Positions 37,528-44,345 of a DNA stretch of 64,000 nucleotides are shown piece after piece. The stretch's first letter is position 1, and every line of letters starts with the position of its first letter. The notes beneath the pieces were generated by a model, which was not told where the DNA came from, did no database searches, and saw only the letters and a list, made by a program, of their open reading frames with translations. The position numbers were made by a program, and so were the translations under genes. The DNA is from a virus: IMG/VR virus record IMGVR_UViG_3300044712_002690, positions 64,001 through 128,000 of that record. One strand, 5' to 3'.

Positions 37528-37615
37528 TGGCGGAGGCCGGATTCGAACCGGCGTTACAAGTCTTTCGACGCCGAGGGTTATGAGCCCTCCGAGAAGCCAA
37601 CTCCTCTACTCCGCT
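37528..37615 (-). tRNA. trnfM: Initiator-type tRNA-Met(CAU) with 20-nt variable arm
   Basis: A1xC72 mismatch, A11:U24, GAGGG-CUCAUAA-CCCUC (three G:C pairs), variable GGCGUCGAAAGACUUGUAAC. Confidence 0.85.
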
Positions 37616-37839: not shown

Positions 37840-37853
37840 ATACCTTACCTATG

Positions 37854-37932
37854 CAGGGGTGACACGAGTCGAACGTGCATTGCCGAAGCACGGTTTTGGA
37901 GACCGCTGGGTTAGCCATTACCCTACACCCCT
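37854..37932 (-). tRNA. trnW: tRNA-Trp(CCA) with 11-nt variable arm
   Basis: GCGGU-CUCCAAA-ACCGU; G73; variable GCUUCGGCAAU. Confidence 0.9.
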
Positions 37933-37942
37933 AAATATTCTG

Positions 37943-38021
37943 AGCAAGTGATGGGACTCGAACCCACAATGCTTTCGCATCAGTTTGGAAGACTGACAGC
38001 TTACCTTTAGCTTACACTTGC
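37943..38021 (-). tRNA. trnG: tRNA-Gly(UCC) with 12-nt variable arm
   Basis: UCAGU-CUUCCAA-ACUGA; U73; variable UGCGAAAGCAUU. Confidence 0.9.
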
Positions 38022-40391: not shown

Positions 40392-40467
40392 TGTTCCTGA
40401 AGGGACTCGAACCCCTAACCTTCTGATCCGTAATCAGAAACTCTAAATCCAATTGAGCTACAGGAAC
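40392..40467 (-). tRNA. trnR: tRNA-Arg(ACG)
   Basis: UCUGA-UUACGGA-UCAGA. Confidence 0.92.
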
Positions 40468-40475
40468 TTAAAATG

Positions 40476-40548
40476 CGTCCCAGGAGAGGATCGAACTCCC
40501 GACAAACGGATTAGAAATCCGTTGCTCTTCCACCTGAGCTACTGGGAC
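40476..40548 (-). tRNA. trnR: tRNA-Arg(UCU)
   Basis: ACGGA-UUUCUAA-UCCGU. Confidence 0.93.
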
Positions 40549-40605
40549 AAAAAGCGTGTTGATATACTCAACACTAAAACCAACGATTTCCATCCAAATC
40601 GCTTG

Positions 40606-42153: not shown

Positions 42154-43767
42154 TTAAATGCCCCCTTTAGCAAATTCAGAAATGATTGATGGTGCCGCTG
42201 AATCGAAGCCGCAAACATCAAGCATTCCAGGGTCTTTAGGATCTGCAATTGTAAATTGAGTTCCTACCATACCTACAACAGCTAATTTAGCATCTTTCAC
42301 ATGAGCGTTTCTATACTTTTTGAGTGCTTGGCTTGGTGCAATTCTTCCGGCCCAAGTCTCATTATCAGTATAGATTGTAAAAATATCAAAGTCTAATTTT
42401 TCTCTAAGAGCCCATTCCATCGGCAATGCACAATCTGTTCCTTCGAATGGAAGACCTGAAATTTTTCTAATAGTTTCATTCAATGACATTCTAGGAGTAA
42501 TGTCAAGGTGCATGAATCTACTAGAGAATCCCATAATCTCATAGTTCTTTTCTGTACGAGCAGTTACCATTGCCATACAAGCAGATGCTTCACGGCAAGT
42601 AACAATACCATACGCTCCAGAAATATAAGCTCCTCCCATTGAACCAGATACGTCAAGTGCAAGTAAGAATCTTTTATCTGTTGGTTCAATATTCTTGAAA
42701 CTAAGATAAAAAGCTTCTTCAAGTGCATCACGTACTTTACCAACAGGCTTCCAAGTAAGACTACCTTTGATTCCATGACCCATTGAATATGTTTTTAATG
42801 CAATGAGAATATTCAATGGATGCAGTCTACTTTTAGAAATATAATCCTGATTAGTTAATTTTCCAACCACACGTTCAATTTCATTAAACTTACCAGGACC
42901 AATTACTCCGATTGCAGTAAGTCTGTTAAGACTTCTCATTAATGCTGTAAGTGGAATATCATCAAGAGCTTCTGTCCAAATACTAACATTATTCTTCAGT
43001 TCAGTAGGCCAAGCATCTTGAGGAATTTTGTATTCCTTAATAAGCTTTTTAGCTTTTGCTACATCAGCTGTTTTAAGTTCATCGAAAGCATTAATAAGTT
43101 TCAATGCTTCTGATTTTTCTCCTTTAACAGCATACTTAAAAAGCTCATTATGAGCATCGGACACTGGTTTTACGTGTGCAGAACGAAGAACATCTCGATG
43201 TGTCCACTGATTTCCTGTTCCTTCAACAGTACGTCCTTGATATTTAACTAGTTGATATTCAAGTTTAGAAGGTTCCATTGCATACCAATTAGAAATAGCT
43301 TTACGTACTGACCTTCCCCAACTTCTCATTGTATCTACATAGTGAGTAAACATGAAAAGATGAGTACCTGTACGACAAATCTTAGGCATAGCCTTTGAGA
43401 TTTCAGTTTTGAAAGAACTATCTTTACAATTAGTAATAAGAGCTGCTAAAAGGAAAATAGCTTGATCATTTTTAGCTGCTCTACCTGAATCAGAAATTTC
43501 TACAATAGTTTCAAGTACACGTTTAGGGTCTTCATCTATACAAGCTAAGCAATTTGAGATGTTTAGCTTAGTAAGATCATTTTGAGTGACATAGTATGTT
43601 CCGCCTTCAGACCCAAGCACAAGGAAGCGTTGGAGCATCTTCCACTTATCTAGTACGAATGTGTACCCACCTGCATTATTCTTTGCCATTTCCTTTTCAC
43701 GACCAGGAATAGGCTGAGATTGAGGTGTTTGTTTAGAATCTTGAAAAGAACTGTAATTGACAGCCAT
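42154..43767 (-). CDS. rsr: Ro60 / TROVE-domain RNA-binding protein (Rsr-like)
   Basis: NNAGGY...LQRFLVLGSEGGTYY, YQGR...WTHRDVLR, HPL..L.AL..Y..G, vWA MIDAS LALDVSGSM, GTDC, YTDNETW; start MAVNYS after GAAGGAGG. Confidence 0.95.
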   Translation of the reverse strand: MAVNYSSFQDSKQTPQSQPIPGREKEMAKNNAGGYTFVLDKWKMLQRFLVLGSEGGTYYVTQNDLTKLNISNCLACIDEDPKRVLETIVEISDSGRAAKNDQAIFLLAALITNCKDSSFKTEISKAMPKICRTGTHLFMFTHYVDTMRSWGRSVRKAISNWYAMEPSKLEYQLVKYQGRTVEGTGNQWTHRDVLRSAHVKPVSDAHNELFKYAVKGEKSEALKLINAFDELKTADVAKAKKLIKEYKIPQDAWPTELKNNVSIWTEALDDIPLTALMRSLNRLTAIGVIGPGKFNEIERVVGKLTNQDYISKSRLHPLNILIALKTYSMGHGIKGSLTWKPVGKVRDALEEAFYLSFKNIEPTDKRFLLALDVSGSMGGAYISGAYGIVTCREASACMAMVTARTEKNYEIMGFSSRFMHLDITPRMSLNETIRKISGLPFEGTDCALPMEWALREKLDFDIFTIYTDNETWAGRIAPSQALKKYRNAHVKDAKLAVVGMVGTQFTIADPKDPGMLDVCGFDSAAPSIISEFAKGGI

Positions 43768-43785: not shown

Positions 43786-43858
43786 TAAGATTAGGTCAAG
43801 TAGTTGGAATAGGGGAAACATTCTGAAGTTAACCTACCCCATCCGTACCTAAAACCTT
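43786..43858 (-). ncRNA. Y-RNA-like element Y2 (upstream of the Ro60 RBS)
   Basis: UUAGGUACGG...UUGACCUAA terminal helix with bulged A; UGGGGUAGG/CCUAUUCCA stem. Confidence 0.8.
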
Positions 43859-43860
43859 TA

Positions 43861-43985
43861 GGAACAAGGCAGGATTTGAACCTGCGACCAGCCCATTATA
43901 AGTGGTAACCTTTTCTCTTCCGTACCTTTCAGTCAATAGTTTGAAAAAAGGGTTTTAGCTGCTCTACCGCTGAGCTACTTGTTCC
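43861..43985 (-). ncRNA. tRNA-Y chimera Y3: tRNA-Ile(UAU)-like body with a 52-nt Y module inserted at 28/29
   Basis: Acceptor, D and T arms intact; insert 43906-43957 holds UUGACU-GAAA-GGUACGG; removing it gives GCCCA-CUUAUAA-UGGGC. Confidence 0.8.
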
Positions 43986-43988
43986 TTG

Positions 43989-44114
43989 TCCTAAGGGGAG
44001 GACTTGAACCTCCGACCCGTAGTGTGACCTGTTAACCTTAACCTGCCGTACCTTTCGGTCAAATAATCGGAAAAGGTATTTTAACTACTGCTCTACCAAC
44101 TGAGCTACCTTAGG
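43989..44114 (-). ncRNA. tRNA-Y chimera Y4: tRNA scaffold with a 60-nt Y-containing insert in place of the anticodon loop
   Basis: CCUAAGG/CCUUAGG acceptor, canonical D and T arms, GUAGU/ACUAC stem enclosing UUGACC-GAAA-GGUACGG. Confidence 0.8.
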
Positions 44115-44123
44115 ATATAAATA

Positions 44124-44191
44124 TAATTGGTCAAATGAGTTGCGATAGGATGCTAACACCATAAGTTAACCTATCACATCCGTACCAATTA
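44124..44191 (-). ncRNA. Y-RNA-like element Y5
   Basis: UAAUUGGUACGG...UUGACCAAUUA; UGUGAUAGG/CCUAUCGCA stem; UUAAC/GUUAG apical helix. Confidence 0.8.
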
Positions 44192-44194
44192 ATT

Positions 44195-44266
44195 CTGCGG
44201 GACTAGGACTCGAACCTAGACAACAGATTCCAAGGACCTGTGTCCTACCAATTAGACCATCCCGCA
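44195..44266 (-). tRNA. trnQ: tRNA-Gln(UUG), atypical C33
   Basis: U1:A72, G73; CAGGU-CCUUGGA-AUCUG. Confidence 0.88.
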
Positions 44267-44345
44267 ATAAGAAATACAATTATATCAGGTACTTTTTGAC
44301 TTCTACTTATAATATAAGATAAGTAAAAGAAGAAAGTAACTAATG

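What the first reader, a model, noticed from the sequence alone, without database searches (positions are those of the whole stretch)
43861..43985. tRNA-Ile(UAU) body with a Ro60-binding module spliced into its anticodon stem
Seen: deleting 43906-43957 (52 nt) yields a canonical 73-nt cloverleaf with stem GCCCA/UGGGC, loop CU-UAU-AA, variable UGGUC and T arm GCAGG-UUCAAAU-CCUGC. The insert folds as UUGACU-GAAA-GGUACGG plus a 9-bp stem, i.e. a Y module with its ends joined by a tetraloop. Established: YrlA mimics tRNA in a permuted order with a closed acceptor stem; this element has the opposite permutation, keeping free tRNA ends and an anticodon hairpin. UAU-anticodon tRNAs are rare in bacteria. 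G-1:C73 is not Ile-like. Inference: a Ro60-tethered tRNA or decoy, or a Ro60-dependent removable intron gating an AUA decoder; possibly a tRNA-to-Y-RNA evolutionary intermediate.
Basis: partly seen in the sequence, partly recalled or inferred. Interest (0 to 1): 0.93.

Follow-up and report, generated by a model that had tools for sequence, protein, structure and literature searches.

The report
tRNA-shaped Y RNAs beside phage Ro60
Two back-to-back tRNA-shaped RNA genes in a large phage each carry, inside the anticodon arm, the docking helix that Y RNAs use to bind the ring protein Ro60; the Ro60 gene follows directly, and the same uncatalogued RNA design sits beside Ro60 genes in many other phages and bacteria.

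Summary
On the minus strand, 43861-43985 is a tRNA-shaped RNA; deleting 43906-43957 leaves a 73-nt cloverleaf. The insert is a Y-RNA module: a bulged helix UUGACU/GGUACGG closed by GAAA, a 9-bp stem, then GGUUAC.

- A second such gene abuts it (43989-44115).
- Two ordinary mini-Y hairpins flank the pair.
- A genuine Ro60 gene (TROVE + vWA) starts about 25 nt downstream of the last hairpin.
- The phage also encodes RtcB.

A covariance model built here finds 93 members beside Ro60 genes in phages, Myxococcota, Gemmatimonadota and others. Of their base-pair cells, 95% are paired, against 71% in shuffles, with compensatory changes in every helix. In three 13-16-Mb genomes every long hit lies next to a TROVE gene.

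Best reading: a Y RNA in native tRNA order, a circular permutation of YrlA.

The "AUA decoder / removable intron" idea is not supported:
- The anticodon-like loop keeps its shape (U33, A37, A38) but its triplet is essentially random across members.
- The neighbouring unit has no such loop.
- Positions -1 and 73 pair.
- No splicing endonuclease gene was found in the phage.

I found no description in Rfam or in the papers held here. This scan has noted the same layout before on another phage (e1-1940638).

The parts
44124..44191 (-). Mini-Y RNA 'Y1': GGUACGG (44180-44186) ... GGUUAAC ... UUGACC (44129-44134), in ordinary Y-RNA order with the helix formed by the two ends
   Evidence: Sequence. 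It folds as one hairpin, z = -3.5. It is an independent module in the fold of the whole cluster.
43989..44115 (-). tRNA-shaped Y RNA 'A'. Parts: U(-1):A73, acceptor CCUAAGG/CCUUAGG, D arm, 5-bp stem GUAGU/ACUAC enclosing only the Y module (UUGACC 44057-44062, cap GAAA 44053-44056, GGUACGG 44046-44052, GGUUAAC), then the T arm. It has no anticodon-like hairpin.
   Evidence: Rfam tRNA 52.4 bits with a 59-nt insertion. R1 87.3 bits. Found by my own scanner.
43861..43985 (-). tRNA-shaped Y RNA 'B', the element of the finding: G(-1):C73, 7-bp acceptor, D arm, 2 outer anticodon-stem pairs, Y module, anticodon-like hairpin, T arm
   Evidence: R1 99.6 bits. Fold. Removing the insert gives a 73-nt cloverleaf.
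43906..43957 (-). The 52-nt Y module inside B. Parts: A-rich linker UAAAA, upper stem 43943-43951 with 43909-43917, internal loop AAACUA / AA, Ro helix UUGACU (43931-43936) with GGUACGG (43920-43926), cap GAAA (43927-43930), and UUA of GGUUAC.
   Evidence: Family covariation in both helices.
43893..43905 (-). Anticodon-like hairpin of B: CCA-CUUAUAA-UGG, a 3-bp stem with a 7-nt loop (U33, 'UAU', A37, A38)
   Evidence: The same 3-bp/7-nt hairpin is in 41 of 93 members, with a conserved loop frame and a variable triplet.
43792..43851 (-). Mini-Y RNA 'Y4': GGUACGG (43843-43849) ... GGUUAAC ... UUGACC (43794-43799)
42154..43767 (-). Ro60 orthologue, 537 aa, preceded by the ribosome-binding site AAGGAGG
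   Evidence: Pfam vWA_Ro60 221 bits and TROVE 124 bits. 365-369 bits to the PDB chains named RO60, X. laevis Ro and D. radiodurans Rsr..

Best explanation
Elements A and B are Y RNAs, the non-coding partners of the phage's own Ro60 protein, built in native tRNA order.

How each is built:
- Each has a tRNA body: an acceptor stem with free ends, extended to 8 bp by a -1:73 pair, plus a D arm, a variable loop and a T arm.
- The anticodon arm is interrupted after its second base pair by a Y module.
- The Y module is an 8-9-bp 'upper' stem, an asymmetric internal loop, and the bulged Ro60-binding helix (here GGU-A-CGG / UUGACY; family consensus GGG-N-[C]-GA / UUGCCC).
- In ordinary Y RNAs this helix is formed by the two RNA ends. 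Here it is closed by a short, freely variable cap.
- Topologically this is a circular permutation of YrlA.

What is shown: the architecture, its covariation, and its tight linkage to Ro60 genes.

What is inferred:
(1) Ro60 docks on the capped bulged helix.
(2) The cluster is transcribed with the surrounding tRNA array, and host RNase P and 3'-end enzymes cut out the tRNA-shaped units. This would also release the two mini-Y RNAs and the Ro60 mRNA.
(3) The tRNA body stabilises the RNA and is the effector module, presenting a complete tRNA look-alike to a tRNA-binding enzyme tethered to Ro60. In B that look-alike includes an anticodon-loop mimic whose triplet is not read as a codon partner.
For: Ro60 gene:
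- A Ro60 gene lies directly downstream on the same strand.

The window's modules:
- The window holds four modules with the same GGUACGG/UUGACY helix.
- The unconstrained fold of the 404-nt cluster gives four independent modules.
- For the dimer, local capped helices give -71.9 kcal/mol against -55.0 for cross-unit pairing.

The family:
- My scanner and model R1 find 93 members of 109-170 nt, all on the Ro60 strand, in 70 of the sources searched, counting the window.
- On a structure-blind MAFFT alignment, 92% of cells are paired, against 71% in shuffles and 36-51% when partners are slid.
- On the 93-member alignment, 95.2% are paired against 71.2%.
- All 8 upper-stem pairs and 4 of 6 Ro-helix pairs show changes on both sides.
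- The pair next to the invariant C is G:C in 80 members and A:U in 8. This places the bulged C as in metazoan Y RNAs.
- Caps are 3-53 nt long and of many sequences (GAAA, UUUU, UAAA, GCAA and others).

Linkage to Ro60:
- The signature GNCGR...RRUUAHC occurs 438 times on the Ro60 strand and 21 times on the other strand in 215 loci.
- In three 13-16-Mb genomes, all six long R1 hits lie beside a TROVE gene.
- The cassette mini-Y / A-type / B-type / mini-Y / Ro60 is repeated in a phage contig whose Ro60 is only 45% identical (L061).

Literature:
- The D- and T-arm consensus equals that of YrlA.
- M. smegmatis YrlA is cut by RNase P and receives CCA (PMC4201824).
Against: - Binding to Ro60 is not shown, and neither transcription nor the RNA ends are shown.
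- The window's motif departs from the published GNCGAAN0-1G. It reads UACGGA, which gives either an A bulge or a G-A mismatch beside the bulged C.
- Acceptor, D and T pairing were partly selected for by my scanner, and alignment A3 is fitted to the model.
- No promoter or terminator stands out above background.
- The effector of the tRNA-like part is unknown, as it is for YrlA.
- Two key reviews (Sim & Wolin 2018; Sim et al. 2020) are not held here, so prior description cannot be excluded.
Confidence: 0.8

Rival explanations
1. Scaffold only. The tRNA body is just a chassis that lets host tRNA enzymes excise and stabilise the Ro60-binding module, like the engineered 'tRNA scaffold' used to express RNAs in bacteria (from my own knowledge). 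On this view it recruits no effector.
For: - The units sit inside a tRNA array with no promoter or terminator signal of their own.
- In bacteria too, the Ro60 loci lie within large tRNA arrays.
- Chen et al. raised protection by the stable tRNA fold as one possibility.
- 41 of 93 members have no hairpin at the anticodon position.
Against: - D- and T-stem sequences, not only the pairing, are conserved as in YrlA. The YrlA structure paper reads that as a protein-contact surface.
- The anticodon-loop frame is kept in 41 members: U33 in 38 of 41 and A38 in 33 of 41.
- The mini-Y RNAs in the same cassette do without a tRNA body.
Confidence: 0.25
2. Cross-unit fold. The functional RNA is a classical YrlA running from GGUACGG of unit A to UUGACU of unit B (T arm of A, spacer, D arm of B). 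The outer halves are by-products.
For: - Rfam YrlA gives a full-length hit at 43926-44045(-), 23 bits, E = 0.023.
- Similar hits occur across other tandem junctions.
- This matches the dimeric-tRNA origin model for YrlA.
Against: - The score is far below the gathering score of 69. Ordinary tRNA dimers score the same, an artefact that Chen et al. warned about.
- Each unit has its own perfect 7-8-bp acceptor stem and its own complementary upper stem.
- The cross-unit fold is 17 kcal/mol worse.
- Many loci have a single unit, where only the capped helix can form.
Confidence: 0.06
3. Gated tRNA. B is a pre-tRNA-Ile(UAU), and the Y module is an intron removed (with RtcB ligation) to release an AUA decoder, perhaps under Ro60 control.
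For: - Removing 43906-43957 gives a canonical 73-nt cloverleaf.
- Outer 2 bp plus inner 3 bp make a 5-bp anticodon stem in 41 members.
- The phage encodes RtcB.
Against: - There are 30 different triplets in 41 loops. Nine have A34, and only one of those is ACG.
- Unit A and 41 of 93 members would be left without an anticodon loop.
- Positions -1 and 73 pair, and C73 is common.
- The module is under purifying and compensatory selection, as expected of a mature RNA part.
- No splicing endonuclease gene is in the phage, and the Rfam scan of this stretch lists no intron or ribozyme family.
- The insert lies in the stem's 5' strand at a three-way junction, not in a bulge-helix-bulge.
Confidence: 0.04
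4. Decoy or bait. The tRNA look-alikes, with their varied anticodon-like loops, soak up or capture tRNA-targeting enzymes such as host anticodon nucleases. Ro60, possibly with RtcB or exonucleases, acts on what is caught.
For: - The loop frame is conserved while the triplet is hypervariable, also between units of one tandem array.
- The phage carries 22 tRNAs and RtcB, a typical tRNA-damage context.
- Ro60, Y RNAs and RtcB share an operon regulated by damaged tRNAs in Salmonella (PMC7790460, abstract).
Against: - There is no direct evidence.
- Many members lack the loop.
- The class is also common in free-living bacteria with no obvious conflict context.
- RtcB lies 66 kb away from the cluster.
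Confidence: 0.1

Closest known systems
YrlA (Rfam RF02553; Salmonella Typhimurium, Mycobacterium smegmatis, mycobacteriophages; Chen et al. 2014, PMC4201824; structure preprint 10.1101/312249)
   Same: - It is a Ro60-linked non-coding RNA encoded beside the Ro60 gene on the same strand.
- It has a tRNA-like domain with the same conserved D arm (GUAGCUCA..GGUAGAGC) and T arm (GGUUCGAnUCC).
- The Ro-binding helix joins the tRNA-like part at the anticodon-stem position.
- M. smegmatis YrlA is even opened by RNase P and receives CCA.
   Different: - The order is D arm then T arm, with free acceptor ends. YrlA has T before D and a closed acceptor-like hairpin.
- The Ro helix is internal and capped, not formed by the RNA termini.
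- Both strands of the Ro helix and a GGUUAYC element are conserved, as in metazoan Y RNAs.
- Many members keep an anticodon-like hairpin.
- The Rfam model scores only 23 bits against a gathering score of 69.
Metazoan Y RNAs and Deinococcus radiodurans Yrn1
   Same: - The module is the same: GGU/GGG-N-[C]-GA paired with UUGNCC and a one-base bulge.
- There is a short 5'-side and a longer 3'-side internal loop.
- An 8-9-bp upper stem ends in GG(G)UUAUC.
- The comparison with the human sequences is from my memory. The motif GGUCCGA is given in PMC4201824.
   Different: In those RNAs the helix is made by the 5' and 3' ends. In Yrn1 it occupies the acceptor-stem position of a partial tRNA mimic. 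Here the ends belong to a full tRNA acceptor stem.
Phage Ro60 systems (mycobacteriophages, Thermus phage phiLo Yrl1/Yrl2; PMC12135203)
   Same: A phage-encoded Ro60 with Y-like RNAs immediately upstream. phiLo Ro60 binds them and forms a complex with host PNPase.
   Different: The phiLo RNAs are ordinary stem-bulge-stem Y RNAs, like Y1 and Y4 here. No tRNA-embedded form is described there.
Permuted and intron-containing tRNA genes of algae and archaea (cited in 10.1101/312249)
   Same: A tRNA body is combined with an extra helix at the anticodon stem, and removal of the extra part restores a cloverleaf.
   Different: Those are processed at bulge-helix-bulge motifs by a splicing endonuclease to give decoding tRNAs. 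Here there is no such motif or enzyme, and the triplets are not anticodon-like as a set.

Membership tests
Y RNA (Ro60-partner RNA, broad sense) | Encoded close to the Ro60 gene, on the same strand | tested here: met
   B ends 94 nt upstream of the Ro60 start codon. 93 of 93 family members lie on the Ro60 strand. All long hits in three whole genomes lie beside TROVE genes.
Y RNA (Ro60-partner RNA, broad sense) | Bulged helix carrying the conserved 5'-strand motif (GGUCCGA in animals; GNCGAAN0-1G in bacteria) | tested here: inconclusive
   The family consensus GGGCCGAAGG / CUUGCCC fits, with covariation. The window's four copies read GGUACGG(A/C)(U/A)G. The CG and a one-base bulge are kept, but two motif positions differ.
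Y RNA (Ro60-partner RNA, broad sense) | Bound by Ro60 | not testable with these tools
   Needs pull-down or gel-shift experiments.
YrlA (RF02553) | Reaches the Rfam gathering score (69 bits) | tested here: not met
   23.2 bits, and only across the A/B junction. 24-29 bits at other tandem junctions and at plain tRNA dimers.
YrlA (RF02553) | T arm 5' of D arm, closed acceptor-like stem-loop, Ro strands at the RNA ends | tested here: not met
   D arm precedes T arm, the acceptor stem is open, and the Ro helix is internal and capped.
YrlA (RF02553) | Conserved D- and T-stem sequences of the tRNA-like domain | tested here: met
   D stem GCUC/GAGC is kept in 81-93 of 93 members. The T-stem pairs next to the loop are G:C in 91-93 of 93. 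The consensus is the same as in the Rfam YrlA alignment line.
tRNA (RF00005 / functional tRNA) | Called by tRNA detectors | tested here: inconclusive
   ARAGORN calls neither element. Rfam's tRNA model calls A (52 bits, insertion in the anticodon loop) but not B. Many family members pass at 40-54 bits.
tRNA (RF00005 / functional tRNA) | Continuous 5-bp anticodon stem with a 7-nt loop bearing a usable anticodon | tested here: not met
   A has no such loop. In B the stem is split 2+3 by a 52-nt branch. Triplets across the family are unconstrained, with A34 in 9 of 41.
tRNA (RF00005 / functional tRNA) | Aminoacylation and CCA end | not testable with these tools
   CCA is encoded in only 7 of 93 members, and no CCA-adding enzyme gene is in the phage. 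The host enzymes are unknown.
tRNA intron (group I, or archaeal/eukaryal bulge-helix-bulge type) | Self-splicing core, or bulge-helix-bulge motif with a splicing endonuclease | tested here: not met
   The Rfam scan of this stretch (E up to 10) lists no intron or ribozyme family. PF01974 is absent from the phage record. The junction is a three-way junction. The host genome is not available.
Ro60 / Rsr protein | TROVE (HEAT-repeat ring) plus Ro60-type vWA domain | tested here: met
   PF25045 221 bits and PF05731 124 bits. 365-369 bits over the full length to the PDB chains named RO60, X. laevis Ro and D. radiodurans Rsr.

The most novel reading that the evidence does not exclude
The tRNA-shaped Y RNAs are matured like tRNAs, by RNase P leaving an 8-bp acceptor stem and then CCA addition. 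They act as Ro60-tethered baits. The hypervariable triplets in their conserved anticodon-loop frame would form a repertoire of tRNA look-alikes that capture or divert tRNA-targeting enzymes such as anticodon nucleases, modification enzymes or repair enzymes. Ro60 would thus be linked to tRNA damage and repair, together with the phage's RtcB. Tandem pairs of these RNAs would also be the living precursors from which classical YrlA arose.
Probability: 0.12. Interest if true: 0.9.

Novelty: new variant of a known kind. Interest (0 to 1): 0.68.

Why it matters
Ro60 and its Y RNAs are conserved from bacteria to humans, where Ro60 is a major autoantigen. What the tRNA-like part of bacterial Y RNAs does, and where Y RNAs came from, are both open questions.

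- **Abundance.** This family was found in 41 of 80 Ro60 loci sampled from cellular genomes and in several phages.
- **Missed by design.** It was probably overlooked because the 2014 survey discarded every candidate overlapping tandem tRNA genes, and that survey found few Y RNAs in delta-proteobacteria. Many of the members found here come from Myxococcota.
- **Origin.** It shows a Y RNA that is still a whole tRNA with free ends. This makes the proposed tRNA origin of Y RNAs concrete.
- **Testable predictions.** It predicts RNase P cutting, CCA addition, a possible charging test, and Ro60 binding to a capped helix.
- **Experimental access.** It offers tractable systems: Gordonia phage Cashline, Sorangium and Minicystis.
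- **Annotation.** Rfam's tRNA model scores many members above its threshold, so they may be mislabelled as tRNAs.

Tried and rejected
- **Exact-motif scan.** Searching viral contigs for TTGACYGAAAGGTACGG gave five loci, all chance matches inside GC-rich coding sequence with no tRNA nearby. Rejected.
- **blastn against phages.** The 411-nt cluster against 50,697 phage records gave no match.
- **Rfam at permissive threshold.** Only the weak YrlA hit and a tRNA-Sec hit (22.5 bits, caused by the 8-bp acceptor stem) appeared; the rest is noise.
- **YrlA hits at tandem junctions.** I considered these as evidence that the dimer is a YrlA. Rejected, because ordinary tRNA dimers score the same.
- **Recent duplication.** I tested whether B is a recent copy of one of the phage's own tRNAs. 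Best identity is 64% (Phe), and tRNA-Ile(GAU) is not among the top eight. Rejected.
- **Closest Ro60 relatives.** L146-L148 (58% identity) have no R1 hit at E up to 0.01, so no close orthologue of A or B was available for fine comparison.
- **Promoter and terminator scan.** Counts equal background.
- **Papers.** The October 2026 preprint on three families of tRNA mimics concerns unrelated RNAs. PMC10870794 and PMC6047535 could not be read.

Full report
**1. What is there**

The window is bases 64001-128000 of a 178,984-bp IMG/VR virus record. Its GC content is about 33%. It encodes its own DNA polymerase, DnaB-type helicase, UvsX-like recombinase and large terminase.

A minus-strand tRNA array runs from 44844 to 36137, with 22 tRNAs called by ARAGORN. 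Between tRNA-Gln (44194-44267) and a 537-aa ORF lie 404 nt without any called gene.

Read on the minus strand, this stretch holds four modules:
- **Y1** (44124-44191) is a hairpin: GGUACGG...GGUUAAC...UUGACC.
- **A** (43989-44115) is tRNA-shaped.
- **B** (43861-43985) is tRNA-shaped and is the element of the finding.
- **Y4** (43792-43851) is a second hairpin of the Y1 kind.

An AAGGAGG ribosome-binding site follows, then the ORF 43767-42154. The ORF is a genuine Ro60:
- Pfam gives vWA_Ro60 at 221 bits and TROVE at 124 bits.
- It scores 365-369 bits over its full length to the PDB chains named RO60, X. laevis Ro and D. radiodurans Rsr.

**2.

B reads as follows: G(-1), acceptor GAACAAG, UA, D arm GCUC-AGCGGUA-GAGC, A, GC, a 52-nt insert (43957-43906), CCA-CUUAUAA-UGG, GC, UGGUC, T arm GCAGG-UUCAAAU-CCUGC, acceptor CUUGUUC, C73.

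With the insert removed it is a 73-nt cloverleaf.

The insert consists of:
- the linker UAAAA
- the stem CCUUUUUUC / GAGAAAAGG
- the internal loop AAACUA / AA
- the helix UUGACU / GGUACGG with one extra base on the 3' side
- the cap GAAA
- UUA

This is not chance:
- GGTACGG occurs 6 times in the window against 0.63 expected. Four of the six are in these 404 nt.
- The 17-nt hairpin core occurs twice against 0.02 expected.

**3. It is a family, and the structure covaries**

Using Ro60 as bait, I fetched 55 viral, 80 genomic and 80 metagenomic loci.

A simple scanner looked for a T arm, a 7/7 complementary acceptor 95-200 nt upstream, and a D arm. It found the same design next to Ro60 in many of these loci.

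- **Structure-blind alignment.** A MAFFT alignment of 36 members (A2) gives 92% paired cells for the proposed structure. Shuffles give 71%, and sliding the partners gives 36-51%.
- **Covariance model.** Model R1 was built on A2. It scores B at 99.6 bits and A at 87.3 bits. Ordinary tRNAs mostly stay below about 56 bits, and a few reach 62-66.
- **Members.** R1 finds 93 members at E up to 1e-14. All are on the Ro60 strand, they measure 109-170 nt, and a locus can hold up to four in tandem.
- **Pair counts on all 93.** 95.2% of cells are paired against 71.2% in shuffles.

Several helices were never selected for by the scanner, and they behave the same way:
- The Ro helix is 94% paired, and 4 of 6 pairs change on both sides.
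- The upper stem is 89% paired, and 8 of 8 pairs change on both sides.
- The two outer anticodon-stem pairs are 93% paired.
- The -1:73 pair forms in 75 of 93 members.

The pair beside the invariant C is G:C in 80 members and A:U in 8. That C is therefore the bulge, as in animal Y RNAs.

The cap that closes the helix is 3-53 nt long and has many sequences. This is what is expected if only closure matters.

Caveats: acceptor, D and T pairing were partly imposed by the scanner, and alignment A3 is fitted to the model.

**4. Link to Ro60**

- The one-strand signature GNCGR-N6-13-RRUUAHC occurs 438 times on the Ro60 strand and 21 times on the other strand in 215 loci.
- Whole-genome searches covered two Sorangium genomes and Minicystis rosea (13-16 Mb each). 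They give six long hits, and all six lie beside a TROVE gene.
- Two of those six lie beside a second, divergent TROVE paralogue.
- In the window's own genome, only A and B match.
- A phage contig whose Ro60 is only 45% identical (L061) has the same cassette: mini-Y, a unit without an anticodon hairpin, a unit with one, mini-Y, ribosome-binding site, Ro60.

**5. Which fold?**

Rfam's YrlA model gives a weak full-length hit (23 bits; gathering score 69). It runs from the GGUACGG of A, through the T arm of A and the D arm of B, to the UUGACU of B. This is the rival 'cross-unit' fold.

I reject it for these reasons:
- Each unit has its own perfect acceptor stem and its own complementary upper stem.
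- The unconstrained fold of the whole cluster gives four separate modules.
- Enforcing local Ro helices gives -71.9 kcal/mol, against -55.0 for the cross helix.
- Single units are common in other loci.
- The YrlA model scores 24-29 bits at other tandem junctions, but it scores the same at plain tRNA dimers. Chen et al. described this artefact.

**6. Not a decoding tRNA with an intron**

In 41 of 93 members, the two outer pairs plus a 3-bp stem and a 7-nt loop restore a 5-bp anticodon arm. The loop frame is conserved: U33 in 38 of 41, a purine at 37 in 34 of 41, and A38 in 33 of 41.

The evidence against decoding:
- The triplet is unconstrained, with 30 different triplets in 41 loops. Nine have A34, and only one of those is ACG.
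- The other 52 members either lack a hairpin there, as unit A does, or have a loop of another size.
- Position 73 pairs with -1 and is most often C. This is unlike tRNAs of mixed identity.
- The phage record has no splicing endonuclease gene and no CCA-adding enzyme gene.
- The Rfam scan of this stretch lists no intron or ribozyme family.

The phage does encode RtcB, 66 kb away. RtcB travels with Ro60 systems in general, as in the Salmonella rsr-yrlBA-rtcBA operon (PMC7790460; PMC4201824). It does not point to splicing in particular.

B's tRNA body is not a recent copy of any of the phage's tRNAs; identity is at most 64%.

**7. How it most likely works**

Shown: the architecture, the covariation, and the linkage to Ro60.

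Inferred:
- Ro60 binds the capped bulged helix.
- The cluster is transcribed with the tRNA array; the promoter and terminator scan gives only background counts.
- The cluster is cut up by host tRNA-end enzymes. M. smegmatis YrlA is likewise cut by RNase P and given CCA.
- The tRNA-shaped part both stabilises the RNA and presents a full tRNA look-alike to an unknown tRNA-binding effector. This extends the tether model proposed for YrlA.

**8. Comparison with what is known**

Three layouts appear in the papers I could read:
- **Animal Y RNAs and the mini-Y type:** the Ro helix is formed by the RNA ends.
- **Yrn1:** the Ro helix sits at the acceptor-stem position.
- **YrlA:** the Ro helix sits at the anticodon-stem position, the T arm precedes the D arm, and the acceptor is closed.

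The present RNAs are the circular permutation of YrlA. They have open tRNA ends and a capped Ro helix, and their Ro module resembles the animal one in keeping both strands and GGUUAYC.

On prior description:
- Chen et al. discarded all candidates overlapping tandem tRNA genes. They found few YrlA RNAs in delta-proteobacteria, and many members found here come from Myxococcota.
- I found no description in Rfam 15 or in the papers held here.
- Two reviews could not be read.
I treated it as a lead only.

A tandem pair such as A+B contains, in its middle, exactly the arrangement of YrlA. It therefore fits the dimeric-tRNA origin model cited in the YrlA structure preprint. That remains an inference.

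**9. Verdict**

- The Ro60-module and permutation reading is supported and extended to a large family.
- The AUA-decoder / intron reading is not supported.
- This is a new variant of a known kind.

Noticed in passing
window 37528-37615 (-): ARAGORN's 'tRNA-Met' (anticodon CAU) is 88 nt long with a long extra arm, like a class II tRNA. That is unusual for a CAU tRNA and scores only 46.8 bits with Rfam's tRNA model.
   Followed up: no
window 37853-37932 and 37942-38021 (-): tRNA-Trp and tRNA-Gly are each 80 nt, longer than usual for these types.
   Followed up: no
G000:C1:173356-174375 (-), outside the window (locus L226): The phage encodes an RtcB RNA ligase (216 bits), 66 kb from the Ro60 cluster. 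No Rnl2-type ligase, CCA-adding enzyme or splicing endonuclease gene was found in the record.
   Followed up: partly
L061:2557-3000: A phage contig whose Ro60 is 45% identical has the same four-RNA cassette in the same order. Its last mini-Y carries an internal T-arm-like hairpin (GUGGGUUCGUACCCAC).
   Followed up: partly
L064:2630-2904 (Mycobacterium phage Catera): Upstream of the Ro gene, the segment CUGCCUCC can pair either with an upstream GGCAGGCCGA (YrlA-like long-range helix) or with a downstream GGAGGCCGAAGG (capped local helix). Two mutually exclusive Y-type folds therefore share one strand.
   Followed up: no
L065:2742-2886 (Gordonia phage Cashline, MW534378): A cultured phage has a 63-bit R1 hit with a long cap, in the unannotated gap just upstream of its 'Ro-like RNA binding protein' gene. 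Its acceptor stem pairs only partly. It is a possible experimental system.
   Followed up: partly
G001:C1:3547793-3549049 and G003:C1:4250798-4251998 (Sorangium): A second, divergent TROVE-domain ORF (568-580 aa; only 25-27 bits to Pfam TROVE) has its own 135-nt tRNA-shaped Y RNA (about 70 bits) roughly 900 nt upstream.
   Followed up: partly
L131 (Minicystis rosea), L071, L088, L091, L113, L169, L181: In these bacteria the Ro60 gene and its tRNA-shaped Y RNAs lie inside very dense tRNA gene arrays, with more than 30 Rfam tRNA hits within 7.6 kb in L131.
   Followed up: no
window 40392-40549 (-): R1 gives a 158-nt, 50-bit hit that simply spans two adjacent tRNA-Arg genes. This is an artefact of the model's long optional insert and should be remembered when R1 is used.
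   Followed up: yes
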